34,319 nucleotides of DNA from an uncultured Nitrososphaeria archaeon (GCA_964465105.1 CAYXHS010000001.1:4850-39168); one strand, 5' to 3'; positions 11,327 through 23,530 are shown, counted from the stretch's first letter. Notes: generated by a model not told the origin, from the sequence alone. Numbers and translations are program-made.

Positions 11327-11330
11327 CCTT

Positions 11331-12500
11331 TCACCTCCCTTCGACCTGATCCTCAGCCTTCATCCCGCATACGCCGCTCATGCATCTAGGATTCCTAATC
11401 AACCTATTTTGCGCCCATATCCTGCATGTTCCCTCAACGCCGACCATCGCTGGGCCTATTGGCGTAGACGGCGTGCAACTTCTCATATAGAGCGGGCATT
11501 CAGGCGGATCTATCAGGCCCTTTATCACCTCAGCGCATCTAGCCTTGGAGGGGAAGTAGTCTCCTCCTTTCCGCCCGATCCCATAGACTTTTCTCGCATC
11601 GATTCTCGAGAACTTCTCCTTGACATCCATGAAGCTTTCAGGGATCACCGCAACCCCTCTCCAATAGCCTTCTTTCAGGTCAAACGCTTCCCGCAAAGCT
11701 CGCTGAGCCCTAAGATTCCCCTCCCAGGTAACCGACCTCCTATACTCGTTCTCGATCTTAGGCGTCCCATCCCTCAGCTGTCTCAAGACCATGTATATCG
11801 CCATGAGAACGTCTATGGGCTCAAACCCCGCGAAGACCATGGGCTTCCCGCACCTATCGAAGTAGGGCTTGTAGGCTTTCATCCCACTTATCGTGGACGC
11901 ATGCCCAGGATTAATGAAAGCATCTATCGCCAGGTCCTCAGACTCCGCGAGAAGCCCCACCGCGGGCGGAACATACCTGTGAGCCGAAAGTATCTTCAGA
12001 TTTTCAGGAAGCCCTCTCAAGATCCAGTAAGCGACTATCGGAGCGGTTGTCTCAAATCCCGCGCCGAGAAAAACGTATTCCTCGCTTGGGTTTGATTTCG
12101 CCAGCTTAACCGCATCCATGAAGCTGTATACGATTCCAACCTTCCCGCCTTCGGCTTCACAATCCTCAAGGGAAATCATTCTCGATCCCTTAGCCCTAGA
12201 CATGTCCCCGTATGTGAGAACGTGGATTCCGTCTAGCGCCAGCTTTATCGCGGCATCTATATCGGAGGCGGGTGTAATGCAGACAGGGCAGCCTGGACCC
12301 GCTCTCACCTCAACGTTTTCAGGTAAAAGGGTCCTTATCCCCCAGTGGGTTATCGTCCACTCATGGGTCCCGCATACATGCATTATCTTAACTCTTGGAA
12401 GGTCTTTGGAGATCTCCCAGATCTTCTGAATTATACTCTTGGCCAGCCCAGGGTCCCTGTATCTCGATATGATTTGCCTCATCGGATCCTTCAGCTTCAA
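11331..12500 (-). CDS. hypD: hydrogenase maturation protein HypD
   Basis: 389 aa. CGTHEWTITH, GPGCPVCI, GFETTAP and PGHASTISG motifs. C-terminal Cx12Cx6Cx16C Fe-S motif. Confidence 0.93.
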   Translation of the reverse strand: MKLKDPMRQIISRYRDPGLAKSIIQKIWEISKDLPRVKIMHVCGTHEWTITHWGIRTLLPENVEVRAGPGCPVCITPASDIDAAIKLALDGIHVLTYGDMSRAKGSRMISLEDCEAEGGKVGIVYSFMDAVKLAKSNPSEEYVFLGAGFETTAPIVAYWILRGLPENLKILSAHRYVPPAVGLLAESEDLAIDAFINPGHASTISGMKAYKPYFDRCGKPMVFAGFEPIDVLMAIYMVLRQLRDGTPKIENEYRRSVTWEGNLRAQRALREAFDLKEGYWRGVAVIPESFMDVKEKFSRIDARKVYGIGRKGGDYFPSKARCAEVIKGLIDPPECPLYMRSCTPSTPIGPAMVGVEGTCRIWAQNRLIRNPRCMSGVCGMKAEDQVEGR

Positions 12501-12604
12501 GCCTTTCTCGAATGCCTTACCCCCTCGCTCTCAATAAAAGCTTAACTATCAAGCTTTCTCCAAGAAACTTATTAGCACACTGCTGCGCTCTTGTCGCTGA
12601 TGAG

Positions 12605-13105
12605 ATGAGCTGGAAAAATGTCCTTAGAGACGTTCTTGAAAGATCTCTTAAGAGAAATGGAGACCTAGTCTTTGTGGGCTTGGGAAACCCTCTCAGAGGC
12701 GATGATGGCATAGGTGTAAAAATTGCTGCGAAGCTCAGCGAGACCTTAAGGCATGAAAGAGTTAAGATTCTAGTGGTCGAAGAGCGAGTTGATCTGCTCC
12801 CGAGGGAGTTGGAGCGCTTGAAGCCGGCGATGATTTTATTTTTCGACGCAGTAGATTTCGGAGGAAACCCTGGTGAGATAAGGCTTATGAGCTTACGAGA
12901 ATCCGCGGGGAAAGCGATCTCAACCCATGAGATTCCTCTGGAGCTTATCGTTAAGATTTCGGGTATAAGCTCGCCAACATATCTTCTGGGCGTTCAGGTG
13001 AAGAGCCTAGAGTTCGGAGAACAGGTAAGCCCGCCCGTTAAAGCCGCTGGAGAAGAGGTCATAAGATTTCTTCAAGAGACTCTAAGTAAGTATCTATTAC
13101 TATAG
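12605..13105 (+). CDS. hydrogenase maturation endopeptidase (HycI/HybD family)
   Basis: The ORF track starts at 12512, but ATG at 12605 gives a 166-aa protein of normal family length. Motifs: VFVGLGNPLRGDDGIGVKIA, ILFFDAVDFGGNPGEIRL, STHEIPL (metal ligands of the endopeptidase family). Sits 64 bp upstream of the membrane hydrogenase operon. Confidence 0.85.
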   Translation: MSWKNVLRDVLERSLKRNGDLVFVGLGNPLRGDDGIGVKIAAKLSETLRHERVKILVVEERVDLLPRELERLKPAMILFFDAVDFGGNPGEIRLMSLRESAGKAISTHEIPLELIVKISGISSPTYLLGVQVKSLEFGEQVSPPVKAAGEEVIRFLQETLSKYLLL

Positions 13106-13169: not shown

Positions 13170-13493
13170 ATGGAAGCAGTTATCGCTCTGATGATAGCCT
13201 TCATTGTCATTCTACTGATCTACCTTCTCGGAGGAGCCATCTCCGCAAAGGCTCCGAAGACTGGAGGAAAGCTTGAACCTTATGCGTGTGGGGAGAATTT
13301 TCCTCCAGCTAGAAGCCCCATAAGATTACTTCTCTTCAATTTCGCAGCTCTTTTCATGATCTTTGATGTCATAGCTCTTTTCATAGCCTTCACGATAAAC
13401 GTTCCTGCAGCTTACAAGCCCAGCATACTAACCTTAATCGTAATTTACGGCATGGTTTTGGGATTGTCAATTCGCTTGCTTGGAAGGAGATGA
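13170..13493 (+). CDS. nuoA: NuoA/ND3-like membrane subunit of the complex-I-like hydrogenase operon
   Basis: 107 aa, three predicted TM helices. Loop motif EPYACGE and TM2 motif ALFMIFDVIALF resemble NuoA (PYECG ... FLIFDVE). ATGA overlap with the next gene. Confidence 0.7.
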   Translation: MEAVIALMIAFIVILLIYLLGGAISAKAPKTGGKLEPYACGENFPPARSPIRLLLFNFAALFMIFDVIALFIAFTINVPAAYKPSILTLIVIYGMVLGLSIRLLGRR

Positions 13494-13939
13494 TTGGAAT
13501 GGGGTTAATGGAGAAGCTGATCAGGAAGTGTAGAGCGAGAAGTCCTTGGATCCTCCTGTTCGATACTGGAGCATGTAACGCATGTGATATAGAGGTGGCG
13601 GCATGCCTGACCCCCCGCTATGATGTCGAGAGATTTGGAACCCTGCTGAGGGGAAGCCCCAGGCACGCAGACATACTCGTCGTGACAGGCCCCGTCACCA
13701 GGCAGGCCAGAGATAGGCTCATCCGAATTTATGAGCAGATGCCTGAGCCCAAGTTCGTTGTCGCTGCTGGAACCTGCGCAACCAGCGGGGGAGCATATTG
13801 GGGGTGTTATAACACCTATCCTGGACTGGACTCCGTGATACCTGTTCACGCCTATGTCTCGGGATGCCCCGTCAAGCCTGAAGCGGTCTTGAAGGCCTTG
13901 AGCATTCTGGTGGAGAAAATAGAGAAGGGGGAGGTTTAG
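13490..13939 (+). CDS. NuoB-position subunit, sequence of a group 4 [NiFe]-hydrogenase small subunit
   Basis: 149 aa. DTGACNACDIE (CxxC, not the tandem CC of complex I NuoB), GTCATSGG and SGCPVKPE give four Cys for one [4Fe-4S] cluster. Confidence 0.9.
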   Translation: MIGMGLMEKLIRKCRARSPWILLFDTGACNACDIEVAACLTPRYDVERFGTLLRGSPRHADILVVTGPVTRQARDRLIRIYEQMPEPKFVVAAGTCATSGGAYWGCYNTYPGLDSVIPVHAYVSGCPVKPEAVLKALSILVEKIEKGEV

Positions 13940-13945
13940 CAGAAG

Positions 13946-14416
13946 ATGGATGAGAAGGAGATCCTGCAGAAGATCGTCGAGCGATTCGGCGAGAAGATCC
14001 TTGACGCCAAGGTCATCGGAGCGAGGAGGATCACGGTAAGGGTTCCGCCAGAAGCTTACAAGGAGGTGGTAAGCTATGTCGCCCACGATCTCGGACTGAG
14101 CTTCCTGAGCTGCCTAAGCGGAATCGATCAAGGAGAAAACCTCGAAGTGGTGGCGCATATAGGCTACTCGATATGCGTCCTAGTTAGGACCCTGATACCC
14201 AAGGATAAACCTGAGATCGAATCGATAACCGACGTCCTTCCCGCCGCGAGCCTCTATGAACGTGAGGCCCATGACCTGCTTGGAATAGTTTTCAAAGGTC
14301 ACCCGAATCTCAAGAGGATTTTCCTCCCAGAAGATTGGCCTAAAGGAGTTTACCCGCTTAGGAAGGATTACGCTCCAAGTCATCCTAAGCCCTTGAGAGG
14401 AGGTGAAGGCGAGTGA
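13946..14416 (+). CDS. NuoC/HycE-N-terminal/MbhK-like 30-kDa-family subunit
   Basis: 156 aa. LYEREAHDLLGIVFKGHP...RIFLPEDWP is the conserved NuoC-family core. GTGA overlap with the next gene. Confidence 0.85.
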   Translation: MDEKEILQKIVERFGEKILDAKVIGARRITVRVPPEAYKEVVSYVAHDLGLSFLSCLSGIDQGENLEVVAHIGYSICVLVRTLIPKDKPEIESITDVLPAASLYEREAHDLLGIVFKGHPNLKRIFLPEDWPKGVYPLRKDYAPSHPKPLRGGEGE

Positions 14417-15597
14417 GCTTCGAGGTCCCAATAGGGCCGCAGCACCCCATTCACGTCGAGCCTTTGATGCTTAGGTTGAAGGTTGACGGAGAGCTTATCG
14501 TGGACGTCGATGTCGATGTGAGCTACCTGCACAGGGGAATAGAGAAGGGACTCGAGGTTAGGACCTACCTGCAGGGCCTTTACCTCGCTGAGAGGATCTG
14601 CGGGATATGCAATTGCGCTCACTCTCTCTGCTACTGCTTGAACGTCGAGCAGCTTCTCGGAAAGGAGGCTCCTCCGAGAGCGAAGTATCTCAGGGTGATA
14701 GTCGAGGAGCTCAGCAGGATGCACAGCCACCTTCTATGGCTCGGCCACTACTTCCACACCCTCGGCTTCGAGACGCTCTTCATGTACTTCTGGAGGGATA
14801 GGGAGAGGGTCATGGACATGCTCGAGCTGATCACTGGAAACAGGGTCACGACGGCATACAATACGATAGGAGGGGTTAGGAGGGATATAACGCCTGAGGC
14901 GGAGTCGAAGCTGAGGAAAGCTCTCGACTATCTCGAGGAGCGTTTGCGATACTACGATAAGGTGATAGACTCTGAGCCAACGATATTAGCTAGGACGCAG
15001 GGTGTTGGCTTGCTGAAGCCTGAGGATGCTATCAAGCTTGGAACGGTTGGCCCGCATCTGAGAGCTTCTGGGGTTAAGCATGACGTTAGGCTTGATGATC
15101 CTTACAGCGGCCATGATGAGATACCGTTTAACGTTGTGACTTGGGACACGTGCGACTGCTATGGGAGAATCAAGGTCAGGATGGGCGAGGTGTATGAGTG
15201 CATAAACATGATACGCTACGCCCTCGATCACCTGCCATCAGGAGACTACAGGCTGAAGATCCCGCCTTTCTTCAAGGCCCCTGAGGGAGAATCGCTTAGC
15301 AGGGTTGAGGCCCCAAGAGGAGAGCTCGTCCACTACTCCATATCCAACGGAGGAACCAATCCATATCGATACAAGGTGAGGACCCCGACGCTCGCGAACC
15401 TCTTGTCGGTCACCCACATGCTGAAAAGCAGGGGAGATTACGAAGTCTACATTGCCGATGTTCCGCCGATCTTAGGAGGGATAGATCCATGTATATGCTG
15501 CACGGCTAGGGTGGTGATAACCGATGAAGCGAGGAAGAAGCGTAAGATCTTGACGCTAAGCGATCTGGAGAGATATTCTCGGGAGAAGGGGGGCTAG
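14413..15597 (+). CDS. NuoD-position subunit, sequence of a group 4 [NiFe]-hydrogenase large subunit with cleavable C-terminal tail
   Basis: 394 aa. IGPQHP start region. L1 motif ERICGICNCAH (nt 14590-14622). L2 motif DPCICCTAR (nt 15484-15510), followed by a 28-aa tail VVITDEARKKRKILTLSDLERYSREKGG that resembles the E. coli HycE tail as recalled. Confidence 0.9.
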   Translation: MSFEVPIGPQHPIHVEPLMLRLKVDGELIVDVDVDVSYLHRGIEKGLEVRTYLQGLYLAERICGICNCAHSLCYCLNVEQLLGKEAPPRAKYLRVIVEELSRMHSHLLWLGHYFHTLGFETLFMYFWRDRERVMDMLELITGNRVTTAYNTIGGVRRDITPEAESKLRKALDYLEERLRYYDKVIDSEPTILARTQGVGLLKPEDAIKLGTVGPHLRASGVKHDVRLDDPYSGHDEIPFNVVTWDTCDCYGRIKVRMGEVYECINMIRYALDHLPSGDYRLKIPPFFKAPEGESLSRVEAPRGELVHYSISNGGTNPYRYKVRTPTLANLLSVTHMLKSRGDYEVYIADVPPILGGIDPCICCTARVVITDEARKKRKILTLSDLERYSREKGG

Positions 15598-15603
15598 AAG
15601 AAG

Positions 15604-16569
15604 ATGATCGAGAAGATACTCGAAGCGGTAATCTTTCCTGGGGCGATCTTCATTCTGGCGATCTCGCTGTTCTACGAGTGGTTCGACCGAAAGCTTTACG
15701 CCAGGCTCCAGAATAGGGTCGGCCCGCACCTCGCAGGACCTTTCGGCCTATTCCAGCCCTTCGCCGACCTAGTTAAGCTCCTCTCGAAGGAAGATATAGT
15801 TCCGAGGGCGGCGGATGGCTTCCTCTTCACCTTGACCCCAATCCTCGCGCCAACGATCATCTTGTTCGCGTGCATGTTTCTCCCGATAAGCGGGCTGAGC
15901 GGAGTAATCTCCTTCAGGGGAGACCTGATAGCTGTGATGGCGATCCTATCAATCTACACGATAATGGTTTACCTCGCTGGGGAGGGATCGAACAACAGGT
16001 TCGCATCGATCGGAGCGACTAGAGCTGCTCTCCAGCTGATAGGCTATGAGATACCCTTAACCCTGGCTCTCCTGAGCGTGGCCGTCGCGGCGGGATCTCT
16101 AAGCCTTCACGGTATAGTTGAGGCTCAGCTAAGGAGAGGGTTCTGGTTCATCGCGGGGCTTCAGCTGATAGGCTTCGCGATATTCGTGGTGGCTTCTCAG
16201 GCGGAGATGGAGCGGATACCCTTTGACATCCCCGAAGCAGAACAGGAGATCGTGGCTGGATGGGAGGTCGAGTATGGCGGGAGAAGGCTCGCGCTCTTCA
16301 GGCTCTCAAAAGACTTGGAGCTAGTCCTACTATCGGGATTGGGGGCGACGGTGTTCCTCGGAGGTCCCCTCGGCCCCGTGATTCCAGGGCTTGAACCCCT
16401 TCTCTACACGATCTACTTCTTGGTGAAGTCCATAATAGTTCTAGCAGTCTTCACTATCGTTAGAACAATTTTCGCTAGGCTTAGGATAGATCAGATGGTC
16501 TCATTCTCCTGGAGGTGGCTAATGCCTCCAGCCATGATCCTGATAATCTTGACGGAGGTGATCGCCTAG
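15604..16569 (+). CDS. nuoH: NuoH/HycD/MbhM-like membrane subunit
   Basis: 321 aa, polytopic. ERKLxARxQxRxGP-type N-terminus ([16 protein letters not shown]), FADLVKL, and the [16 protein letters not shown] loop typical of the NuoH family. Confidence 0.9.
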
Positions 16570-16570
16570 G

Positions 16571-16921
16571 ATGAGGCTTCCAGGATACTTCATAGCGGAA
16601 GCCCTGAGAAACTTGTTCAAGAAAAGGGCAACCATCTTGTATCCCTATCGGGAGGCTGAGAAAGTGCATCTCCCAGAAGGCTTCAGGGGGAGAATAGAGT
16701 TCAATCGAGAAAAGTGCATCGGATGTCAGCTCTGCTCTAGGGTCTGCCCAGCGAAGGCGATAGAGGTCATAGAAGATGAGAAGGGGAAGAGGCCCGTGTT
16801 CCTGATCTATAGGTGTATTTATTGCGGTCAGTGTGCTGAGGTATGTCCAACCAAAGCGATCACCTTGAGCAAGGTGTTCGAGAATATCGCGCTTAGGAAG
16901 GAGGATCTGGTGGTGAGATGA
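16571..16921 (+). CDS. nuoI: NuoI/HycF/MbhN-like 2x[4Fe-4S] ferredoxin subunit
   Basis: 116 aa with [12 protein letters not shown] and [12 protein letters not shown]. Confidence 0.9.
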
Positions 16922-17163
16922 TGGAGGCCGCAATACACCTCATCCTGATAATAGTAACCCTCGTCTTCTCGATCCTAGCCGTTGAGATCAAAGACTTACT
17001 GAAAGCGATCCTAGCATTCATGGCGGCGAACATCGCCATGTCGGCGATCTTCTATATCCTCGGCGCACCATATCTAAGCGTCTTCCAGCTTCTGATATAT
17101 GCAGGAGCCATAACGATACTGCTCCTAGCGACCATGCACGCAGGAGAGGAGAGAGGTGATTAG
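16918..17163 (+). CDS. nuoJ: NuoJ-like membrane subunit, N-terminal part (TM1-3)
   Basis: 81 aa. [21 protein letters not shown] matches the conserved NuoJ TM3 segment (VYAGAI). ATGA overlap with nuoI. Confidence 0.75.
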
Positions 17164-17422
17164 AATGGAGGCGACCAGAGCTCTCGCAGCCATATTATCG
17201 GTTTTGCTCGCCCTCGCCCTCCTAGCCTATTCCCCCAAGATAACTGAAAGCCTGAAGGCGCCTAGTCTCAAGTTAACAAGCATAGATGAGAACCCTCAGT
17301 TCCTTTGGGCTAATAGAGGGCTTGATCTCCTAATTCAGGCTTTCATGATCCTCGCGGCGGCGATGGCGATCTCGGCTCAGCTTAGAAAAGAGGAGCGGGT
17401 CAGGGAGGTGGAGGAGAAATGA
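17156..17422 (+). CDS. small membrane subunit, probable C-terminal part of a split NuoJ (MbhE-like)
   Basis: 88 aa, two hydrophobic helices separated by a polar loop. Position between the NuoJ N-part and NuoK, overlapping both. Start is GTG at 17156 or ATG at 17165. Confidence 0.55.
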   Translation: MIRMEATRALAAILSVLLALALLAYSPKITESLKAPSLKLTSIDENPQFLWANRGLDLLIQAFMILAAAMAISAQLRKEERVREVEEK

Positions 17423-17739
17423 ACCTATATGAGCTGTATTTCGCTGGATCCCTCCTGCTAATAGTCGTCGGCGTCTACACGCTGGCCTCTAAGAGGAACC
17501 TAGTAAGGATAGTCATAGGCTTGGAGCTCATCACCCTCGGAGTTAACCTTACGATAGCGACCATGGGGATCAGAATGGTAAATGGCGCTGTCTCGATCGA
17601 TGCTCTCGCTCAAAGCATGGTGGCGATCTCCATAGCCATCGCCGCCGCAATCGCCGCTCTGGCCCTATCCCTAGCGATAAACATCTACCGCCATTATGGG
17701 ACTTTTGATGTTAGGAAGCTTAGGAGGTTGAGGTGGTGA
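17419..17739 (+). CDS. nuoK: NuoK/HyfE/MbhG-like membrane subunit
   Basis: 106 aa, three TM helices. IGLELITLGVNL carries the conserved TM2 glutamate. Confidence 0.85.
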   Translation: MNLYELYFAGSLLLIVVGVYTLASKRNLVRIVIGLELITLGVNLTIATMGIRMVNGAVSIDALAQSMVAISIAIAAAIAALALSLAINIYRHYGTFDVRKLRRLRW

Positions 17740-17743
17740 GCCG

Positions 17744-19258
17744 ATGAATCCGCTTCTACCAGTCTTGGTTCTCTTGGGCGCCGCCGTGATAATAGTCTTA
17801 GTTGATCCTCTGATGAGGAAGGCGGGAGCAAGGGAAGGCGGAGGAGCCATCGCCAGCATAGCCTTCTTCCTCAGCCTGATACTCCTAGCCGCTCAAGCCT
17901 CAGCAGGCCATCAAGTCTCAATCTATACGATCTTCGGGCCAGAGTCTCCTCTAACCGCGTCCATGAAGCTCGACCTCCTAAGCCTTTACCTCTCGATGAT
18001 ATTCTGCGGAGTCGGGCTGGCGGCGGCGATCTACTCGATCAGATACATGATCTTGGAGAGGGAGACAGGTTTAGACAGATATTATCCGCTTCTGCTGACC
18101 CTGATCGCTGGAATGGTCGGGGTGACTGTGGCGAACGACTTCTTCACCCTATACGTTTTCTGGGAGCTCATGGCCATCTCCTCATACTCCCTCGTATCCT
18201 TCAGGAAGTGGTCTTGGGAGGCTGTGGAAGCCGGCTTCAAATATCTAGTCATGAGCACCCTAGGATCTCTTTCAGCTCTCTTCGGGATAGCGCTGCTCTA
18301 CGGCTTAACGGGATCTCTCAGGTTCGACATGATCCGAGCAAGCGTCTTCTCGGGCGGGAATCCCGCGGCCACCCTATCCCTTGCGATGATAATCATAGGC
18401 TTCGGAGTAACCGCCGCCGTAGTCCCCTTCCACTCCTGGCTTCCAGACGCTCACCCCGCAGCCCCAACCCCGATCAGCGCGGTCCTCTCAGGAGTCGTCA
18501 TAAAGACTGGGGTCTACGCCATGCTGTGGAGCCTATTCAAGGTCTTCACTCCGCTCCACTACGGCTTCGGAGCGATCCTAATGGGCTTAGGAGCCCTCAC
18601 CATGACCTTCGCCAACGTGGTCGCCGTCATGCAAAGCGATGTCAAGAGGTTCCTAGCCTACTCAAGCATAGCGAACATAGGCTACATAGTGACTGGAATG
18701 GGGCTCGCAGCATATGTGCTGAACAGGTATCCGGATCAGCTGAGCGTGGCGGCGTTGGCGCTCACGGGCGCTCTCTTCCATGTGTTGAATCATGCTCTGG
18801 GCAAGGGTCTCTCCTTCCTCTCGGTCGGTTGCTATATCGTGAGAGCAGAGTCTAGGGAGATAAGTGAACTCGAGGGGATAGGGGCGAAGATGCCTATAAC
18901 AACCGCCTCCTTGGGGATAGGGCTGCTAAACCTCGCTGGAGTTCCTCCTCTGAGCGGCTTCTGGAGCAAGCTCTTCATAATCTCGGCTGGCCTCGGCATA
19001 CCATCAGACGCTCTAATGCTCACGATAACCCTGATATTCATTCTGAACAGCGTTCTCGCCGCAGGATATTATCTATGGTTCCTCCAGAGAATAGCTTTCA
19101 GAAAAGGCTCAGGTGAAAAGCATTCGCGGATCAAGGAGGCTCCACCGCTCATGCTCGCCCCGCTGATCGCCCTCGCCTCCGCATGCATCCTCATCACGAT
19201 CATGTTAGCCCCAGTTCTTCAGTTCATCCAATCCGCCTTGGAGGTGGTTATCGGATGA
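17744..19258 (+). CDS. Mrp-antiporter-like subunit (NuoN / HyfB / MbhH-like)
   Basis: 504 aa, about 14 TM helices. FWELMAISSYSLV (TM5 Glu) and SWLPDAHPAAPTPISAVLSGVVIKTGVYA, typical of the proton-translocating NuoL/M/N family. Confidence 0.88.
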   Translation: MNPLLPVLVLLGAAVIIVLVDPLMRKAGAREGGGAIASIAFFLSLILLAAQASAGHQVSIYTIFGPESPLTASMKLDLLSLYLSMIFCGVGLAAAIYSIRYMILERETGLDRYYPLLLTLIAGMVGVTVANDFFTLYVFWELMAISSYSLVSFRKWSWEAVEAGFKYLVMSTLGSLSALFGIALLYGLTGSLRFDMIRASVFSGGNPAATLSLAMIIIGFGVTAAVVPFHSWLPDAHPAAPTPISAVLSGVVIKTGVYAMLWSLFKVFTPLHYGFGAILMGLGALTMTFANVVAVMQSDVKRFLAYSSIANIGYIVTGMGLAAYVLNRYPDQLSVAALALTGALFHVLNHALGKGLSFLSVGCYIVRAESREISELEGIGAKMPITTASLGIGLLNLAGVPPLSGFWSKLFIISAGLGIPSDALMLTITLIFILNSVLAAGYYLWFLQRIAFRKGSGEKHSRIKEAPPLMLAPLIALASACILITIMLAPVLQFIQSALEVVIG

Positions 19259-21264
19259 CCCTGGAGCCTTGGGCGATCTATGCTTGGGCCAGCTGGCTGA
19301 TCCCCCTAATAGGAGCCCTGCTTACGCCGCTTCTGGCAAGGCTCGGGGAGAAGATCAGAGACTATGGGGCTGTCGCATTCTCCTTCCTGGGAATGCTCAT
19401 GGCGCTCAACCTGCTGCCCCTGCTCTTCGAGGAGGTCAGGTGGCCTCTCACGAGCCAGGTCTCATGGCTTCTCATACCAGGCGCCCCGATCCTAAGCGAG
19501 GTGAAGGCTGGAATCCTCCTAGATCCCCTCAGCATAATAATGGCAAGCATCGTCGCGGTCGTGAGCTTCCTGATAATGGTCTACTCGATAGGCTATATGC
19601 GCGGAGACCCTGGGCTTACAAGATACTGGTTCTTCATGAACTTCTTCATAGCCAACATGCTCCTCCTAGTCTTATCGGATAACCTAATCCTGATGCTCGT
19701 CGGATGGGAGGGAGTCGGCCTCTGCAGCTACGCTCTCATCGGATACTGGTATCAAGACTCGAGGGAAGGGTGGCTGCACTACTGGGTGGGAGAGCCTCCA
19801 GAGGCATATCCTCCATCCCACTGCGGGATGAAGGCATTCCTGGTAACGAGGTTCGGAGACCTCCTCATGATCGCTGGAATACTGATCGTCGCAAGCCTGA
19901 CCAAAACCGTAAGCTTCGCGGATTTGATGAGCGTCGGAGCCTCAGCTCCAGCAAACCTCAGCTGGCTTCTACCGATCGCGCTTATCCTGATCCTAGCAGG
20001 GGCAGTAGGAAAGTCTGCCCAGCTCCCGCTGATGGAATGGCTTCCAGATGCTATGGCAGGCCCCTCCTCGGTTAGCGCCCTGATCCATGCTGCCACCATG
20101 GTTAAGGCTGGAGTCTACCTGGTCGCTAGGATCTTCCCGATCGCGCTCAGCTGGAGCGCGGTCATCCCATCGACGCTGAGCTTCTTCTACGTTGTAATGT
20201 GGATCGGGGCCTTGACGGCGTTCATAGCCGCGAGCCAGGCGGTCGCCTCAACCGAGCTTAAGAAGGTTCTCGCGTACTCGACGGTGAGCCAGATAGGCTA
20301 CATGATGATGGCTCTCGGAGCAGCGGGGCTGACCGCGAACATAATCGAGGGATATGTCGGATCCCTATTCCACCTCCTAAACCACGCGGTCTTCAAGGCA
20401 GCTCTCTTCCTGGCAGCCGGATCGATAATCCACGCATGCGGGTCGAGATTCCTGAGGGATATGGGCGGGCTGAGAAGATACATGCCCATAACGTTTTACA
20501 GCATGCTCTTCGCCGCTCTCGCCCTCATGGGTCTGCCGCCCTTCGGGGGATTCTGGAGCAAGGATCTGGTCCTCTCAGCGGCCCTTTCCTCAGGAGAGTA
20601 TCTCGCCTTCACCCTAGGTCTCATAACAGCGATCCTAACCGCATTCTACAGCATAAGGATCATCGGCCTGGTATTCTATGGATCATCTCAAGCCGAGGAG
20701 AAACATGAAGCGCACGAAGCTCCGAAAGTCATGTGGGCGCCCTACCTCATCCTAGCCCTCCTCAGCCTCCTCATAGGTCTAGCTGCGCCAGCTCTAGAAC
20801 ATAACCTCAAAGAACTCTTTGCAGGCTACCTTCTCTCCCACAAGCTTCCAGCCCATGAAGCCGCTGGCCTTCAGCTGCTAGTTCCCATAGCCTCAATCAT
20901 AGCTCTGGCAGCCGGAGCCTTTCCAGCATACCTGCTCTACGTCAGGAGAACTAGAAATCCGGAGGAGATCGTCTCGAGACATGATTACCTCAAGTCTTTG
21001 AGAAACCTTCTCCTGAGGAGATACTACATCAACGCATTCTACTACAAGGCTTTAGCTTATCCCTCCATAAAGCTTGGGCAGCTTCTCTTCAGCGGATTCG
21101 AGGTCAAGATCATAGATGGGCTCAACTACGCTTTATCGCTTGGAGCTCGAAAGCTTTCAAGCTGGGTGAGGAGAATCCATACCGGGATTCTAAACCATTA
21201 CGTAATCGGGATAATCTTGGGAGCCTTGATCTTGATAATCTTGTTCTTGGCGGGAGGCGTGTAG
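19255..21264 (+). CDS. nuoL: NuoL-like antiporter subunit with long C-terminal (lateral helix) extension
   Basis: The ORF track starts at 19183. ATG at 19255 forms an ATGA overlap with the previous stop and is preceded by GGAGGTGG. 669 aa. VGWEGVGLCSYALIGYWY and LMEWLPDAMAGPSSVSALIHAATMVKAGVY. The C-terminal approx 130 aa (YYINAFYY...IIDGLNY...final TM) looks like the NuoL HL helix plus TM16. Confidence 0.9.
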   Translation: MTLEPWAIYAWASWLIPLIGALLTPLLARLGEKIRDYGAVAFSFLGMLMALNLLPLLFEEVRWPLTSQVSWLLIPGAPILSEVKAGILLDPLSIIMASIVAVVSFLIMVYSIGYMRGDPGLTRYWFFMNFFIANMLLLVLSDNLILMLVGWEGVGLCSYALIGYWYQDSREGWLHYWVGEPPEAYPPSHCGMKAFLVTRFGDLLMIAGILIVASLTKTVSFADLMSVGASAPANLSWLLPIALILILAGAVGKSAQLPLMEWLPDAMAGPSSVSALIHAATMVKAGVYLVARIFPIALSWSAVIPSTLSFFYVVMWIGALTAFIAASQAVASTELKKVLAYSTVSQIGYMMMALGAAGLTANIIEGYVGSLFHLLNHAVFKAALFLAAGSIIHACGSRFLRDMGGLRRYMPITFYSMLFAALALMGLPPFGGFWSKDLVLSAALSSGEYLAFTLGLITAILTAFYSIRIIGLVFYGSSQAEEKHEAHEAPKVMWAPYLILALLSLLIGLAAPALEHNLKELFAGYLLSHKLPAHEAAGLQLLVPIASIIALAAGAFPAYLLYVRRTRNPEEIVSRHDYLKSLRNLLLRRYYINAFYYKALAYPSIKLGQLLFSGFEVKIIDGLNYALSLGARKLSSWVRRIHTGILNHYVIGIILGALILIILFLAGGV

Positions 21265-21266
21265 AA

Positions 21267-22739
21267 ATGATGGACGTAAATCATCTTCTCATGCAATCCG
21301 TGGTCGCCCCGATCATAGCTTCGCCGATAGTCCTGCTTCTCGGAAAGAGGCTTAAACGAGATGTGGGCTGGATAACCTTAGCTCCGCTAGCATACTCGCT
21401 AATCTGCTTAGCTGCCTCAAGCTACGCCATATATAGGATCGGAGATCCTCTCACAGCATCTTACCTATGGGCTCAGCCCCTCGGGGCCCTGATCCTGCTT
21501 CTGGATGGACTAAGCGCTCCAGTAGCCCTCACGATAGCTGTTCTCGGGCTTCTCACCTGCATATATTCGGTCTCCTACATGGAGGCTGAAGAAAAGCATG
21601 GAGGATACTTCGCCCTCTATCTCCTCTTCACCTCTGGGATGCTTGGGACCGTGCTCTCGGTGAACCTCGCAGCCTTCTTCATCTTCTTCGAGTTTATGCT
21701 GATAACCTCATGGCTTCTGATAGCGTTCTGGGGGGAGGAGAGGAGGGAGCAGGCTGCCCTCAAATACTTCATCTACACCGAGGCCGGAGCGCTTCTACTT
21801 CTCGCTGGGATAGGCGTCGCCTATGCGGCAACTGGAACCCTTAACTTGCTGGAGATCAAGGTGAGGGCCGCTGGCCTAAGCTCAAGTCTCATAAGTCTCA
21901 TGGTCTCGTTGATGTTCATAGGGTTCTTGGTGAAGATGGCGATATTCCCGCTCCACTCCTGGCTTCCAGACGCATACACTCAGTCGCCGACCCCGATAAC
22001 CGCGATATTCTCGGCCATGACGGGCATAGGGGGCTATGCGGCGATCAGGATACTCTATACGGGCTTTCCGTCGATGCTCCGATCATGGGGCTTCATGATG
22101 ACCTTGGCTATCCTAGCTCTCGTAACGATACTATATGGAGGCTACATGGCTCTCGCTCAAGACAGGCTGAAAACGCTTCTAGCATACTCCAGCATAAGCC
22201 AGATGGGATACCTCCTATTCGGAATAGCATCTCAGTCGATCGTGGGGCTTCTCGGAGCCATCTTGATCTACGTAGCCCATGGATTCGCGAAGGCCATACT
22301 CTTCATGGCCTCGGGCCTCCTCTCCAGATCCGCTGGATCAGATAGGATTAGGGATCTCAGCGGCTTAGCAAGCAAGATGCGGCTGATGAGCATAGCTTTC
22401 ATGATAGGGTTCCTGAGCTTGATGGGCTTTCCGCCTCTTCTAGGATTCTGGGGAGAGCTGCTGATCTTCGCAGGCTCCATCTACTCAGCTCTTTCAAGCT
22501 CCCTCGACGCGGTTAGGTTAACGATAACCCTGATCGCGATAATCGCTGCGATAATAACCGCAGGCTATGGCCTCTGGACCATACGAAGGATCCTATTCGG
22601 AGAGCAGTCAGACCTGGTCAAGAGATCTAAGCCTGAGCCCCTCCTCCTACTGGCTCCCATGTTCGCCTCGGCTCTGCTCCTTATAGTCTTCGGAATTCAG
22701 CCGACGATCCTCACCAAGCTCGCCGAAGCCTTAGCTTAA
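21267..22739 (+). CDS. nuoM: NuoM-like antiporter subunit
   Basis: 490 aa. FFIFFEFMLITSWLLIAFWG (NuoM-type TM5 Glu) and HSWLPDAYTQSPTPITAIFSAM. Confidence 0.88.
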   Translation: MMDVNHLLMQSVVAPIIASPIVLLLGKRLKRDVGWITLAPLAYSLICLAASSYAIYRIGDPLTASYLWAQPLGALILLLDGLSAPVALTIAVLGLLTCIYSVSYMEAEEKHGGYFALYLLFTSGMLGTVLSVNLAAFFIFFEFMLITSWLLIAFWGEERREQAALKYFIYTEAGALLLLAGIGVAYAATGTLNLLEIKVRAAGLSSSLISLMVSLMFIGFLVKMAIFPLHSWLPDAYTQSPTPITAIFSAMTGIGGYAAIRILYTGFPSMLRSWGFMMTLAILALVTILYGGYMALAQDRLKTLLAYSSISQMGYLLFGIASQSIVGLLGAILIYVAHGFAKAILFMASGLLSRSAGSDRIRDLSGLASKMRLMSIAFMIGFLSLMGFPPLLGFWGELLIFAGSIYSALSSSLDAVRLTITLIAIIAAIITAGYGLWTIRRILFGEQSDLVKRSKPEPLLLLAPMFASALLLIVFGIQPTILTKLAEALA

Positions 22740-22966
22740 GCTCCTTCCCTGCTCAGCCTCAAGACTTCTTCAAATTCTTTTAGGATTTCTAGGGCGCTCT
22801 TCTCATCCAAGACCTTTATGGCGTATCCCGCGTGGACTAGAACGTAATCTCCGACGTTGGCGTCAACCATCGCAAGCATGACCTCTCTCCTAACCCCGTT
22901 TCCGAAATCCACTACCCCTATGTCGCCCTTGACTTCAACGACCTTTCCTGGAACGGCGTAGCACAT
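22736..22966 (-). CDS. hypC: hydrogenase assembly chaperone HypC/HupF
   Basis: The ORF track starts at 23005. The family requires N-terminal Met-Cys, and the internal MCYAVPGKVVEV (start 22966) gives a canonical 76-aa HypC with the DYVLVHAGYAI core. Confidence 0.9.
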   Translation of the reverse strand: MCYAVPGKVVEVKGDIGVVDFGNGVRREVMLAMVDANVGDYVLVHAGYAIKVLDEKSALEILKEFEEVLRLSREGA

Positions 22967-23008
22967 TCCGCTAATCGGAGATTCGAGCCCCCGCCTAATA
23001 AACAAATC

Positions 23009-23416
23009 TCAGTAAGCTGGCAGGATGAGACAGGTCACCTGCTTCAGCCTCCCAACCCTCCTCAACTTCATCAGAAGCTCCTTAACCTTCAGCGACTTAC
23101 CCCTCACGGCGATTATCAAGAGGCAGTCTTTCTCGGATAGGTGGAGGTGAAGAGTTGATGGTATCAGGTCGAGAAATTCATGTTGGACGTCGGTGAGCTT
23201 CTCGTCCAAGCCATGCTCCTCATGCGAGTAATGAACTAAGATCGCTCCAGCGACATCCTCCTCTGAAAGCCTCCAGGAGTTCAAGGAGATGAAAGCCCTT
23301 ATGGCCTCCTGAATCGCTTGAGACCGCGATCTTATCCCAAGCTCCTCGATTATCCTATCGAAAGCCCTCAGGAGCTCCTCTGGAAACGATACGCCCGTCC
23401 TAACAATCTTACTCAT
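23009..23416 (-). CDS. nikR: nickel-responsive transcriptional regulator NikR
   Basis: Start taken at MSKIVRTGVSFPEELL (23416; the ORF track extends to 23509). Ribbon-helix-helix N-domain. The C-domain aligns with Pyrococcus NikR as recalled, with Ni ligands conserved (QHEF, LHLHL, DC). A TATA-like GATATAAGC lies 24-32 nt upstream. Confidence 0.9.
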   Translation of the reverse strand: MSKIVRTGVSFPEELLRAFDRIIEELGIRSRSQAIQEAIRAFISLNSWRLSEEDVAGAILVHYSHEEHGLDEKLTDVQHEFLDLIPSTLHLHLSEKDCLLIIAVRGKSLKVKELLMKLRRVGRLKQVTCLILPAY

Positions 23417-23439
23417 GATCCGAAAATAAGTGAAGCGAG

Positions 23440-23448
23440 GCTTATATC
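23440..23448 (-). promoter_or_regulatory. TATA-like GATATAAGC upstream of nikR
   Basis: Located 24-32 nt upstream of the nikR ATG. The identical 9-mer occurs at the same distance upstream of the ABC binding-protein gene. Confidence 0.45.
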
Positions 23449-23497
23449 TCCTTTTTGGAGCCGCGCCGTAGGACCCATCCTTCTCTCTTCGAAGTCG

Positions 23498-23530
23498 GTG
23501 AGATCTCAATACTATTTCTTGTGAGATCTC
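23498..23530. repeat. two copies of GTGAGATCTC (palindromic core GAGATCTC) 23 bp apart
   Basis: Exact 10-mers at 23498-23507 and 23521-23530, flanking the stop of the small ORF, 82-114 nt upstream of the nikR ATG. Confidence 0.5.

What the first reader, a model, noticed from the sequence alone, without database searches (positions are those of the whole stretch)
13170..22739. Operon with full complex I architecture that still carries a [NiFe]-hydrogenase catalytic core
Twelve co-directional, mostly overlapping ORFs reproduce the 11-subunit complex I core in nuo-like order. The order is A, B, C, D, H, I, J (split in two) and K, followed by three antiporter-like subunits: an N/HyfB-like one of 504 aa, an L-like one of 669 aa with the long C-terminal lateral-helix extension, and an M-like one of 490 aa. 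Homology-based annotation would call this NADH-quinone oxidoreductase.

The sequence argues against that label:
- The NuoD-position protein keeps both Ni-Fe ligand motifs (ERICGICNCAH at nt 14590-14622; DPCICCTAR at nt 15484-15510) plus a cleavable tail.
- The NuoB-position protein has the hydrogenase-type DTGACNACDIE (nt 13562-13594) rather than the tandem-Cys N2 motif of complex I.
- There is no NuoEFG or FpoF-type electron-input module.
- The operon is flanked by a HycI-like endopeptidase, hypC/D/E/F and nikR.

The group 4 hydrogenases I can recall (Ech, FHL/Hyf, Mbh, Coo, Eha/Ehb) lack a NuoA/ND3 homologue and/or the complete N-M-L arm with lateral helix. This therefore looks like an energy-converting, probably ferredoxin-dependent, hydrogenase with the complete complex I subunit architecture. 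It would be a candidate evolutionary intermediate, and a likely systematic misannotation.
Basis: partly seen in the sequence, partly recalled or inferred. Interest (0 to 1): 0.85.

Follow-up and report, generated by a model that had tools for sequence, protein, structure and literature searches.

The report
Complex I-shaped [NiFe] hydrogenase (Hfo type)

Summary
Twelve tightly packed co-directional genes (13170-22739, +) encode homologues of NuoA, B, C, D, H, I, a split J, K and three antiporter-like subunits. One of these is a full-length NuoL with a lateral helix.

The D subunit keeps all four Ni-Fe cysteines, which align with those of HycE and MbhL, plus a HycE-like cleavable tail. The B subunit has the hydrogenase CxxC motif, not the tandem CC of complex I. 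No NuoEFG or FpoF gene lies anywhere in the window. A HycI-type protease, hypC/D/E/F and nikR flank the operon.

Loh et al. 2021 named exactly this architecture Hfo (HydDB subgroup 4g) in Bathyarchaeia and called it the link between hydrogenases and complex I. Hua et al. 2018 and Buessecker et al. 2022 had already noted the cysteines in this lineage (Wolframiiraptoraceae, Caldarchaeales). The latter called it "Mbh-Mrp", a label the gene content does not fit.

The same 12-gene cluster recurs in Thermoprotei, Thermofilaceae, Nezhaarchaeota and metagenomes. No Hfo enzyme has been characterised biochemically.

One by-product may be new. Some cysteine-less complex I-type clusters carry a membrane arm 62-67% identical to an Hfo arm, but a head closest to other complex I heads. 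That points to module exchange.

The parts
12512..13105 (+). HycI-type hydrogenase maturation endopeptidase (197 aa), 64 nt upstream and co-directional
   Evidence: Pfam HycI. NCBIfam TIGR00072 scores 94 bits against a cut-off of 47; TIGR00142 hycI scores 80.6 bits, below its cut-off. It is conserved upstream of the operon in the Wolframiiraptor loci examined where the contig reaches that far (L002-L008, L014) and is also encoded upstream in L037.
13170..13493 (+). Subunit A (107 aa), NuoA/ND3 homologue with three predicted helices and a PYACGE loop motif
   Evidence: Pfam Oxidored_q4, 25.4 bits against 23.3. The orthologue profile A1 hits only ND3/Nqo7/NuoA chains in the PDB, best E = 1.6e-7.
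13490..13939 (+). Subunit B (149 aa), hydrogenase small-subunit / NuoB homologue; [4Fe-4S] motif C29-x-x-C32 within DTGACNACDIE
   Evidence: Pfam Oxidored_q6. The best PDB match is MbhJ at 159 bits, ahead of MbsJ (123), HycG (118) and complex I PSST (about 114); CNAC aligns with CNGC of MbhJ and HycG. CxxC is found in all 16 NiFe-type clusters and CC in all 8 cysteine-less ones.
13946..14416 (+). Subunit C (156 aa), NuoC/FpoC homologue
   Evidence: Pfam Complex1_30kDa, 115.6 bits. NCBIfam FpoC and NuoC models score about 110 bits.
14413..15597 (+). Subunit D (394 aa), [NiFe] large subunit. L1 ligands are Cys63 and Cys66 (nt 14599-14610). L2 ligands are Cys360 and Cys363 (nt 15490-15501). A 28-residue tail follows Arg366.
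   Evidence: Pfam Complex1_49kDa plus NiFeSe_Hases. PDB matches: HycE 300 bits, MbhL 256, Nqo4 250. The cysteines align with those of HycE and MbhL, and the tail aligns with the HycE tail. The cysteines are conserved in all related hydrogenase-type loci.
15604..16569 (+). Subunit H (321 aa), NuoH/MbhM-type membrane anchor of the peripheral arm
   Evidence: Pfam NADHdh, 312.8 bits. NCBIfam NuoH, 270.9 bits against a cut-off of 305.
16571..16921 (+). Subunit I (116 aa), 2x[4Fe-4S] ferredoxin-like subunit and the presumed ferredoxin docking site
   Evidence: Pfam Fer4 with two stretches. NCBIfam NuoI and HyfH families. Two CxxCxxCxxxCP motifs are visible in the translation.
16918..17163 (+). Subunit Ja (81 aa), N-terminal part of a split NuoJ (MbhD-like)
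   Evidence: Pfam Oxidored_q3, 35.1 bits, and MbhD, 27.9 bits. NCBIfam PRK06433, the short archaeal NuoJ.
17156..17422 (+). Subunit Jb (88 aa), a two-helix membrane protein taken to be the C-terminal part of split NuoJ; this is an inference
   Evidence: No Pfam, NCBIfam or PDB match. It is conserved at this position in every cluster examined. That includes the cysteine-less complex I-type cluster L040, at 30% identity and E = 5e-6.
17419..17739 (+). Subunit K (106 aa), NuoK/MrpC/MbhG homologue
   Evidence: Pfam Oxidored_q2, 75.1 bits.
17744..19258 (+). Antiporter-like subunit 1 (504 aa), MbhH/HyfB-like, presumably in the NuoN position. The canonical TM7 Lys is replaced by Thr.
   Evidence: Pfam Proton_antipo_M. 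NCBIfam best match is HyfB at 309 bits. PDB best match is MbhH at 240 bits. Motif table.
19255..21264 (+). Antiporter-like subunit 2 (669 aa), NuoL-type, with TM15, a lateral helix (residues 589-642) and TM16. All canonical NuoL charged residues are present.
   Evidence: TIGR01974 scores 524.9 against a cut-off of 407.5, full length. Aligns with Nqo12 residues 53-601. AlphaFold2 model with pLDDT 84.9. Foldseek top 39 hits are NuoL/ND5/NdhF. Motifs.
21267..22739 (+). Antiporter-like subunit 3 (490 aa), NuoM-type with Glu in TM12. The central TM8 Lys appears to be missing.
   Evidence: TIGR01972 scores 302.5 against a cut-off of 263.8. PDB best match is NdhD4 at 192 bits. Motifs.
22736..23005 (-). 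hypC (89 aa), convergent with the operon end
   Evidence: Pfam HupF_HypC, 88 bits. Conserved at this position in Wolframiiraptor loci.
23009..23509 (-). nikR (166 aa), nickel-responsive regulator
   Evidence: Pfam NikR_C plus RHH_1.
10256..12500 (-). hypE (10256-11326) and hypD (11331-12500), divergent from the operon and shared with the neighbouring group 3 hydrogenase
   Evidence: Pfam AIRS/AIRS_C and HypD, 416 bits.

Best explanation
The operon encodes an Hfo-type ('Fpo/Nuo-like') energy-converting [NiFe] hydrogenase of an anaerobic thermophilic archaeon of the Wolframiiraptoraceae (Caldarchaeales). The family falls in the loosely defined HydDB subgroup 4g.

Proposed mechanism, with the status of each step:
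- Reduced ferredoxin docks on the 2x[4Fe-4S] subunit I. This is inferred from complex I-like enzymes that lack an N-module.
- Electrons pass through the single [4Fe-4S] cluster of subunit B to the Ni-Fe site in subunit D. The ligand sets are shown by sequence.
- There, two protons are reduced to H2 in place of quinone reduction. The D precursor is matured by HypC/D/E/F and trimmed after Arg366 by the HycI-type protease encoded upstream. This is inferred from the HycE-like tail and the gene neighbourhood.
- The redox reaction is coupled, through H, A, Ja/Jb and K, to a complex I-type membrane arm. That arm has three antiporter-like subunits tied together by the lateral helix of the NuoL-type subunit, and it translocates H+ (or Na+). 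The architecture is shown; the coupling is inferred.

The enzyme should be reversible.
- In this fermentative lineage the likely direction is ferredoxin to H2 with generation of an ion gradient, as Buessecker et al. 2022 propose.
- In acetogenic Bathyarchaeia, Loh et al. 2021 propose the reverse, gradient-driven direction.

Ferredoxin-to-H+ electron transfer releases far less energy than NADH-to-quinone transfer. I therefore expect fewer than four ions per H2. The loss of one canonical lysine in each of two antiporter-like subunits may reflect this, but that link is speculative.
For: Subunit set, order and operon packing.

Ni-Fe site and head:
- Ligands Cys63/66 and Cys360/363 align with the HycE and MbhL ligands, whereas Nqo4 has none. 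In that alignment, the position of the quinone-binding Tyr87 of Nqo4 is Gly, and the position of His38 is Val. The Glu of the hydrogenase 'EP' motif is kept.
- The C-terminal 28 residues align with the cleaved HycE tail, and a HycI-type protease lies 64 nt upstream.
- B has CxxC like MbhJ and HycG. CxxC against CC separates 16 NiFe-type from 8 cysteine-less clusters perfectly.

Membrane arm:
- The A profile hits only ND3/NuoA.
- L is a full-length NuoL with the lateral helix.
- M passes the NuoM model.

Other points:
- No NuoEFG, FpoF or MbhABCF-type gene occurs in 34 kb.
- The same 12-gene cluster with intact cysteines occurs in five Wolframiiraptor-type loci that span it (L003-L006, L008; also L007, L014, L042 and L044). 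It also occurs in Thermoprotei (L037), Thermofilaceae (L038) and Nezhaarchaeota (L041), and in metagenome loci L045, L051, L053, L055, L057 and L067; L061 is cut off upstream of D.
- Literature naming this architecture and function: PMC7886697, PMC9246946, PMC6053391.
Against: - No Hfo or 4g enzyme has been purified or assayed (PMC7886697; PMC7374477; nothing later found). Activity, electron partner, direction, ion and stoichiometry are all inferred.
- HydDB itself could not be run, so '4g' is an inference. It rests on 57-59% identity of D to Bathyarchaeota and Methanomethylicus proteins and on shared architecture.
- The hyp genes are shared with an adjacent group 3 hydrogenase.
- The position of each antiporter-like subunit in the arm, and the identity of Jb, are not shown.
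- Two antiporter-like subunits lack a canonical lysine, so not all may pump.
Confidence: 0.85

Rival explanations
1. It is an ordinary 11-subunit complex I-type enzyme (a ferredoxin:quinone or Fpo-like oxidoreductase), as much of the automatic annotation says. On this reading the cysteines are relics.
For: The best NCBIfam model for D is NuoD, at 345 bits against a cut-off of 360. L and M pass the NuoL and NuoM models. Public names include 'NADH dehydrogenase subunit' and 'NADH-quinone oxidoreductase subunit L'.
Against: - All four ligands, the cleavable tail and the CxxC motif of B are conserved across distant lineages whose D is only 52-65% identical.
- The quinone-site Tyr and His positions are not conserved.
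- A dedicated HycI-type protease is encoded upstream.
- True cysteine-less relatives exist for comparison (L040, L046, L048, L052). They have CC in B and D ending in DVDR.
Confidence: 0.03
2. It is an Mbh-Mrp type hydrogenase (HydDB 4d, as in Pyrococcus furiosus). This is how it was labelled for W. gerlachensis.
For: Buessecker et al. 2022 call it a 10-subunit 'Mbh-Mrp'. The closest PDB chains for B and for antiporter-like subunit 1 are MbhJ (159 bits) and MbhH (240 bits). Ja also matches Pfam MbhD.
Against: - No MbhA/B/C/F (MrpE/F/G/B-like) Na+ module genes and no MbhI are present.
- The cluster has a NuoA/ND3 subunit, a full NuoL with lateral helix and a NuoM, none of which MBH has.
- The PDB holds no archaeal complex I. 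'Closest to Mbh' therefore partly reflects sampling: the cysteine-less cluster L040 has an N-type subunit 47% identical to this one.
Confidence: 0.04
3. The enzyme is the same, but its physiological direction is reversed. It consumes the membrane potential to reduce ferredoxin with H2, an Eha/Ehb/Ech-like anaplerotic role. This is what Loh et al. propose for the Hfo of acetogenic Bathyarchaeia.
For: Loh et al. 2021. A full complex I-type arm moving several ions per turnover would suit an uphill reaction better than the weakly exergonic ferredoxin-to-H+ reaction; this is an inference from standard potentials. A second, soluble group 3 hydrogenase next door could supply or remove H2.
Against: Wolframiiraptor is described as a sugar- and peptide-fermenting organism. 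It has many ferredoxin-reducing tungsten oxidoreductases and no Rnf, so it needs a ferredoxin sink (PMC9246946). Nothing in the window points to a ferredoxin-consuming autotrophic pathway.
Confidence: 0.2

Closest known systems
Hfo, the 'Fpo-like 11-subunit [NiFe] hydrogenase' of Bathyarchaeia (Loh et al. 2021, PMC7886697). Hfo-like clusters were also reported in Ca. Methanomethylicus mesodigestum and Pyrodictium delaneyi (HydDB subgroup 4g-6 and sister groups).
   Same: - The same 11 subunit types (A, B, C, D, H, I, J, K and three antiporter-like).
- Conserved L1 and L2 motifs.
- No FpoFO or NuoEFG module and no MbhABCF Na+ module.
- D is 57-59% identical to Bathyarchaeota and Methanomethylicus proteins.
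- A Bathyarchaeota locus (L010) holds the same genes.
   Different: - The host lineage is different (Wolframiiraptoraceae, Caldarchaeales).
- Here J is split into two ORFs.
- The antiporter genes run N-type, L-type, M-type after K rather than L, M, N.
- The operon sits inside a maturation island next to a group 3 hydrogenase.
- The likely physiological direction is H2 evolution rather than H2-driven ferredoxin reduction.
- Identity with the published Hfo sequences themselves could not be tested, because they were not at hand.
Respiratory complex I and Fpo-like 11-subunit complexes (Nuo/Nqo, Fpo, NDH-1)
   Same: - Full subunit architecture, including ND3/NuoA, NuoH, J, K, a NuoL with lateral helix and NuoM.
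- L and M pass the curated NuoL and NuoM models.
- The membrane arm is 47-53% identical to that of a bona fide cysteine-less archaeal cluster, L040.
   Different: - A Ni-Fe site replaces the quinone site, and the Tyr87 and His38 positions are not conserved.
- B has CxxC instead of the tandem CC of cluster N2.
- D has a cleavable C-terminal tail.
- In a crude tree, D groups with hydrogenases and not with the single clade of 46 cysteine-less NuoD-type proteins.
MBH of Pyrococcus furiosus (PDB 6CFW; HydDB 4d)
   Same: Ferredoxin-dependent, H2-evolving, ion-translocating group 4 hydrogenase. B, D and antiporter-like subunit 1 find MbhJ, MbhL and MbhH among their best PDB matches. J is split, as in MbhD/MbhE.
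   Different: MBH has one antiporter-like subunit plus an Mrp-type Na+ module (MbhA-C, F) and MbhI, and it has no ND3 homologue. This cluster has three antiporter-like subunits, NuoL with a lateral helix, NuoA, and no Na+ module.
Formate hydrogenlyase and hydrogenase-4 (Hyc/Hyf) of E. coli (PDB 7Z0S; HydDB 4a)
   Same: HycE is the best PDB match for D, at 300 bits, including the C-terminal tail removed by HycI. Hyf also has three antiporter-like subunits, and HyfB is the best NCBIfam model for antiporter-like subunit 1.
   Different: There is no formate dehydrogenase partner and no C-D fusion. NuoA, NuoJ and a true NuoL/NuoM pair are present. HycC is a much weaker match to the L subunit than NuoL chains are.
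Complex I-like [NiFe] hydrogenases of Heimdallarchaeia (groups 4j/4m/4p/4q; Appler et al. 2024 preprint)
   Same: Nuo-type clusters without NuoEFG, with a NuoD predicted to be an active hydrogenase; the architecture resembles complex I.
   Different: [quoted passage not shown] The phylum is also different.

Membership tests
Group 4 (energy-converting) [NiFe] hydrogenase | Large subunit with an L1 motif (C-G-[ILV]-C-x-x-x-H) and an L2 motif (D-P-C-x-x-C-x-x-R), whose four Cys ligate Ni-Fe | tested here: met
   ERICGICNCAH and DPCICCTAR align column for column with the HycE and MbhL motifs. They are conserved in all hydrogenase-type relatives.
Group 4 (energy-converting) [NiFe] hydrogenase | Small subunit with a single proximal [4Fe-4S] cluster bound by C-x-x-C (not CC) | tested here: met
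   CNAC aligns with CNGC of MbhJ and HycG. CxxC is found in 16 of 16 NiFe-type clusters and CC in 8 of 8 cysteine-less clusters.
Group 4 (energy-converting) [NiFe] hydrogenase | C-terminal extension of the large subunit removed by a specific endopeptidase, plus Hyp maturation genes | tested here: met
   A 28-residue tail aligns with the HycE tail. A HycI-type protease lies upstream, and hypC/D/E/F and nikR are adjacent. Cleavage itself is not testable here.
Group 4 (energy-converting) [NiFe] hydrogenase | Nickel content and H2-evolving or H2-consuming activity | not testable with these tools
   This needs biochemistry. No 4g or Hfo enzyme has been assayed, according to PMC7886697 and PMC7374477.
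Hfo (Fpo/Nuo-like 11-subunit hydrogenase; Loh et al. 2021) | The same 11 subunit types as Fpo/Nuo (A, B, C, D, H, I, J, K, L, M, N) in one cluster | tested here: met
   J is split into two ORFs, and the second half is assigned by position only.
Hfo (Fpo/Nuo-like 11-subunit hydrogenase; Loh et al. 2021) | No FpoFO or NuoEFG input module and no MbhABCF Na+ module | tested here: met
   I scanned the ORFs of 100 aa or more that were not nested in a longer annotated ORF, plus hypC. None of these families appeared.
Hfo (Fpo/Nuo-like 11-subunit hydrogenase; Loh et al. 2021) | Large subunit classified by HydDB in subgroup 4g and placed phylogenetically with the Bathy-6, Methanomethylicus and Pyrodictium clade | not testable with these tools
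Indirect evidence: 57-59% identity to Bathyarchaeota and Ca. Methanomethylicus proteins, and the window groups with Bathyarchaeota L010 and Nezhaarchaeota L041 in NJ trees.
Respiratory complex I / Fpo (quinone- or phenazine-reducing) | NuoD without Ni-Fe ligands and with the quinone-binding Tyr and His; NuoB with tandem-Cys cluster N2 | tested here: not met
   The cysteines are present. The Tyr87 position is Gly and the His38 position is Val in the alignment with Nqo4. B has CxxC.
Respiratory complex I / Fpo (quinone- or phenazine-reducing) | Membrane arm with NuoA, H, J and K, and with L (lateral helix), M and N | tested here: met
   The N-position subunit scores below the NuoN cut-off and is MbhH/HyfB-like.
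MBH / Mbh-Mrp (HydDB 4d) | Mrp-type Na+ module (MbhA, B, C, F), MbhI, and a single antiporter-like subunit | tested here: not met
   No such genes are present. There are three antiporter-like subunits plus NuoA.

The most novel reading that the evidence does not exclude
The membrane arm of Hfo-type hydrogenases may be an exchangeable module, moved between a hydrogenase head and a complex I-type head within Thermoproteota.

The evidence comes from four cysteine-less clusters: L040 (from a MAG labelled Nitrososphaerales) and metagenome loci L046, L048 and L052.
- They carry N, L and M subunits 62-67% identical to those of an Hfo cluster (L051). These subunits nest inside Hfo membrane-arm diversity with 100% bootstrap support.
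- Their B and D subunits are closest to other cysteine-less complexes, with CC in B and D ending in DVDR.
- The two modules are encoded as two divergent operons split exactly at the head/arm boundary.

If this is real, at least one complex I-like enzyme was assembled recently by putting a quinone-type head on a hydrogenase's pump. The Hfo arm of this window would then be a working example of the interchangeable 'P-module' that modular-evolution models of complex I postulate.

A weaker variant of the same reading: the lost lysines in two antiporter-like subunits mark a pump tuned to fewer ions per turnover.
Probability: 0.45. Interest if true: 0.65.

Novelty: new member of a known kind. Interest (0 to 1): 0.4.

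Why it matters
Moparthi and Hagerhall (2011) proposed that the common ancestor of complex I and the membrane hydrogenases was an 11-subunit complex with a Ni-Fe site on NuoD. In their survey they found no living example. Hfo-type clusters such as this one are such examples, and Loh et al. (2021) already said so.

What this window adds is modest but useful.
- It shows the type in Wolframiiraptoraceae, a lineage with a cultivated member whose published energy model depends on this enzyme. There the enzyme was labelled Mbh-Mrp, a label the gene content does not fit.
- It documents the NuoL lateral helix and the ND3 homologue explicitly.
- It shows the cluster is widespread in Thermoproteota.

Much automatic annotation still calls these genes NADH-quinone oxidoreductase. 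That misleads metabolic reconstructions about respiration versus fermentation. The enzyme remains uncharacterised, so the ion stoichiometry of a full complex I-type arm driven by the small ferredoxin/H2 potential gap is an open and testable question.

Tried and rejected
- Jb (17156-17422). A profile of 8 orthologues found nothing in the PDB, and Pfam and NCBIfam found nothing either. Its assignment as the second half of NuoJ stays an inference.
- 'Intermediate' position of D. In a crude NJ tree of 156 D-type proteins, all 46 cysteine-less proteins form one clade, and the window family lies among the hydrogenases rather than next to that clade. By bit score, the first cysteine-less representative appears only at rank 46 of 150. 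I therefore do not claim a special sister relationship to NuoD.
- 'Mosaic of an Mbh-like head and N subunit with complex I-like L and M'. I considered this from the PDB best hits and rejected it as an artefact of PDB sampling. The cysteine-less archaeal cluster L040 has the same N-type subunit, at 47% identity.
- 'Fast evolution after Ni-Fe loss' as the explanation for the head/arm incongruence. This is disfavoured, because L040's B and D are more similar to another cysteine-less cluster (54% and 47.5%) than to the Hfo cluster whose arm it shares (45% and 39%).
- HydDB classification could not be run.
- Look-up of P0239 (Ca. Hecatella) found no record.
- P0091, 55% identical to D, turned out to sit in a B-D-I-only cluster without membrane genes. 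It says nothing about the architecture.
- Bacterial-type promoter and terminator scans were not used, because the host is an archaeon.

Full report
**1. What is in the sequence**

Between 13170 and 22739 the + strand carries twelve ORFs. They are separated by -8 to +6 nt, and most have a purine-rich stretch just upstream of the start.

Pfam and NCBIfam assign them as follows:
- NuoA/ND3, which is weak: 25.4 bits against a cut-off of 23.3.
- NuoB.
- NuoC.
- A protein with both Complex1_49kDa and NiFeSe_Hases matches.
- NuoH.
- A 2x[4Fe-4S] NuoI-like protein.
- A short NuoJ/MbhD-like protein.
- An 88-aa protein with no family.
- NuoK.
- Three Proton_antipo_M proteins of 504, 669 and 490 aa.

A HycI-type endopeptidase gene lies 64 nt upstream on the same strand. 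hypD and hypE are divergent upstream, and hypC and nikR are convergent downstream.

**2. The weak points of the observation, tested**

The NuoA call rested on a marginal Pfam score. I aligned 11 orthologues from related loci and searched the profile against all PDB sequences.
- Every one of the 26 matches is an ND3/Nqo7/NuoA chain, best E = 1.6e-7.
- The invariant PYACGE aligns with the ND3 hallmark PYECG.

The lateral helix of the 669-aa subunit holds up on three tests.
- It passes the curated NuoL model over its full length (524.9 bits against a cut-off of 407.5).
- It aligns with T. thermophilus Nqo12 residues 53-601 of 606, with the TM5 Glu, TM7 Lys, TM8 His, TM11 Lys and TM12 Lys-Asp all in place.
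- An AlphaFold2 model from a 48-sequence alignment (pLDDT 84.9, pTM 0.85) ends with TM15 (542-563), a single 54-residue helix (589-642) and TM16 (646-668). Its top 39 Foldseek hits in the PDB are all NuoL/ND5/NdhF chains, with TM-scores of 0.74-0.86.

- The 490-aa subunit passes the NuoM model and has the NuoM-type Glu in TM12.
- The 504-aa subunit is HyfB/MbhH-like and falls below the NuoN cut-off.

The 88-aa ORF could not be identified by sequence. It is conserved at this position in every related cluster, including cysteine-less ones. Its two hydrophobic segments fit the C-terminal half of NuoJ. That assignment remains an inference.

**3. It is a hydrogenase, not complex I**

In HMMER alignments with solved structures:
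- Cys63 and Cys66 of the D protein align with the L1 cysteines of E. coli HycE and P. furiosus MbhL.
- Cys360 and Cys363 align with the L2 cysteines of the same two proteins.
- Nqo4 of T. thermophilus has no cysteine at any of these positions.
- The quinone-binding Tyr87 and His38 of Nqo4 correspond here to Gly and Val.
- The 28 residues after Arg366 align with the C-terminal peptide of HycE. From the literature on E. coli hydrogenase 3, that peptide is removed by HycI.

The B protein's CNAC aligns with CNGC of MbhJ and HycG. Across 24 related clusters, CxxC goes with intact Ni-Fe cysteines 16 times out of 16. CC goes with cysteine-less D proteins 8 times out of 8.

I scanned the window's ORFs of 100 aa or more, leaving out those nested in a longer annotated ORF. 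No NuoE/F/G, FpoF/O or Mrp-type MbhA/B/C/F gene is present.

The hyp genes sit between this operon and a second [NiFe] hydrogenase operon on the minus strand. That operon comprises a large subunit (6196-7494), a small subunit (7481-8266), an FAD/NAD subunit (8263-9096) and an Fe-S subunit (9084-10178), with hypF at 3825-6131. The hyp genes therefore probably serve both enzymes.

**4. Whose genome, and how widespread**

The closest D proteins (83-98% identity) come from MAGs labelled Ca. Wolframiiraptor, Aigarchaeota, Thaumarchaeota or Nitrososphaeria. An identical L subunit lies on an 84-kb ENA contig.

The full A-B-C-D-H-I-Ja-Jb-K-N-L-M cluster with intact cysteines recurs in several places:
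- Loci L003-L008, L014, L042 and L044, several of them from MAGs named Ca. Wolframiiraptor.
- A Thermoprotei contig (L037).
- A Thermofilaceae genome (L038).
- A Nezhaarchaeota genome (L041, with two extra genes inserted).
- Metagenome loci L045, L051, L053, L055, L057 and L067; L061 is cut off upstream of D.

Two variants exist. A Bathyarchaeota locus (L010) has the same genes in two blocks. Some Euryarchaeota MAGs have a shorter K-L-N-A-B-C-D-H-I version.

Public names alternate between 'nickel-dependent hydrogenase large subunit' and 'NADH dehydrogenase subunit' for D. For L they are uniformly 'NADH-quinone oxidoreductase subunit L'.

**5. What is already known**

- Moparthi and Hagerhall 2011 found that all 11-subunit complexes they surveyed lacked the C-terminal cysteine pair. 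They postulated an 11-subunit, Ni-Fe-bearing common ancestor (PMC3144371).
- Hua et al. 2018 noted a CXXC motif in NuoD of two Aigarchaeota bins and suggested a group 4 hydrogenase (PMC6053391).
- Loh et al. 2021 described exactly this architecture in Bathyarchaeia and named it Hfo.
  - HydDB classified it in subgroup 4g.
  - They listed Hfo-like clusters in Ca. Methanomethylicus and Pyrodictium.
  - They noted that no 4g enzyme has been characterised (PMC7886697).
- Buessecker et al. 2022 built the energy metabolism of the cultivated W. gerlachensis on this enzyme, labelled as a 10-subunit Mbh-Mrp (PMC9246946).
- Appler et al. 2024 reported complex I-like hydrogenases with shorter arms in Heimdallarchaeia.
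- I found no later biochemical or structural work on Hfo.
- Subgroup 4g is polyphyletic (PMC13582414). Thermofilales hydrogenases are commonly assigned to it (PMC11094006).

The finding is therefore a correct re-discovery: a new member, in another lineage, of a known kind.

**6. Mechanism**

The evidence supports a ferredoxin:H+ oxidoreductase.
- Electrons enter at subunit I. They pass through the B cluster and reduce protons at the Ni-Fe site in D.
- The reaction is coupled, through H/A/J/K, to a complex I-type arm of three antiporter-like subunits.
- The ligand sets, the subunit set and the NuoL fold are shown. The electron partner, the coupling, the ion and the direction are inferred.

From standard potentials, ferredoxin to H+ yields only a fraction of the energy of NADH to quinone. 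Four ions per H2 is therefore unlikely; Loh et al. assumed two.

In this context one detail of the antiporter-like subunits is notable.
- The N-position subunit has Thr in place of the TM7 Lys. Thr or Ser is conserved there in nearly all orthologues.
- The M-type subunit lacks the central TM8 Lys.
- The L-type subunit keeps every canonical residue.

Whether this reduces the stoichiometry is speculation.

**7. Evolutionary position**

Among the best 150 representatives of a 1.84-billion-protein library, 75 have both cysteine pairs and 51 have none. The first cysteine-less one ranks 46th.

In a crude NJ tree, all cysteine-less D proteins form one clade, and the window's family lies among the hydrogenases. 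The D subunit alone gives no special affinity to NuoD.

The membrane arm tells a different story. Cysteine-less clusters L040, L046, L048 and L052 have CC in B and D ending in DVDR. Each is encoded as two divergent operons, I-H-D-C-B-A and Ja-Jb-K-N-L-M.
- In an NJ tree of N+L+M (1641 columns, 300 bootstraps), they nest inside the Ni-Fe-type clusters. They group with L051, L053 and L057 at 100% support.
- In the B+D+H tree, all 16 Ni-Fe-type clusters are monophyletic at 100% support, and these four fall outside.
- Pairwise identities agree. L040's N, L and M are 62%, 67% and 66.5% identical to those of the Hfo cluster L051. Its B and D are closer to another cysteine-less cluster (54% and 47.5%) than to L051 (45% and 39%).

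This looks like exchange of the whole membrane arm between a hydrogenase and a complex I-type enzyme. It rests on distance methods and few taxa, and it needs proper phylogenetics.

**8. Verdict**

Interest is moderate. The enzyme class is evolutionarily important and still uncharacterised, and a cultivated host exists. As a discovery, however, it is a new member of a known kind.

Noticed in passing
window 6196-10178 (minus strand), with hypF at 3825-6131: A second [NiFe] hydrogenase operon of the soluble four-subunit group 3 (sulfhydrogenase-like) type. It comprises a large subunit (432 aa, NiFeSe_Hases), a small subunit (261 aa, Oxidored_q6), an FAD/NAD-binding subunit (277 aa) and a Fer4_22 subunit (364 aa). 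Together with hypF/E/D/C, HycI and nikR, the region forms a 'hydrogen island' serving two enzymes.
   Followed up: partly
L040:3539-13658; L046, L048, L052 (metagenome loci): These are cysteine-less, complex I-type 11-subunit clusters: tandem CC in B, and D ending in DVDR. Each is split into two divergent operons exactly at the head/arm boundary. Their N, L and M subunits are 62-67% identical to those of an Hfo-type hydrogenase cluster (L051) and nest within Hfo arms at 100% bootstrap. Their B and D subunits are closest to other cysteine-less complexes. This suggests exchange of the membrane arm between hydrogenase and complex I-type enzymes.
   Followed up: partly
window 17744-19258 and 21267-22739: The N-position antiporter-like subunit has Thr where the canonical TM7 Lys sits (GVTAAVVPFHSWLPDAH). 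Thr or Ser is conserved there in nearly all orthologues. The M-type subunit lacks the central TM8 Lys (…AMTGIGGY…). The L-type subunit keeps all canonical residues. In Bathyarchaeota locus L010 the pattern is reversed: L is degenerate and M keeps the Lys.
   Followed up: partly
L039:9548-11538: A D homologue 55% identical to the window's (P0091, both cysteine motifs by Pfam) sits in a three-gene B-D-I cluster. That cluster has no membrane subunits at all and lies next to an FrhB/FdhB-like gene. It may be a soluble offshoot of this hydrogenase family.
   Followed up: no
window 19660-19790 (residues about 168-190 of the 669-aa subunit): The NuoL-type subunit and its archaeal relatives carry a conserved insertion of about 20 residues after TM5/6 (…DSREGWLHYWVGEPPEAYPPSHCG…), with invariant W177, Y185, P187, S188 and H189. 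It is absent from T. thermophilus Nqo12, and the model's confidence is lower there.
   Followed up: no
window 25645-28518 (minus strand): A ZnuA / ABC-3 permease / ABC ATPase metal-uptake system and an FmdE-like protein lie just beyond nikR and a CitMHS/ArsB-type transporter (23715-24995). This could be a nickel or other metal supply linked to the hydrogenase island.
   Followed up: no
L012, L013, L015 (Euryarchaeota / Methanomicrobia MAGs): A shorter relative of the cluster with gene order K-L-N-A-B-C-D-H-I. It has intact Ni-Fe cysteines, only two antiporter-like subunits, and an L-type subunit matched only to about residue 584.
   Followed up: no
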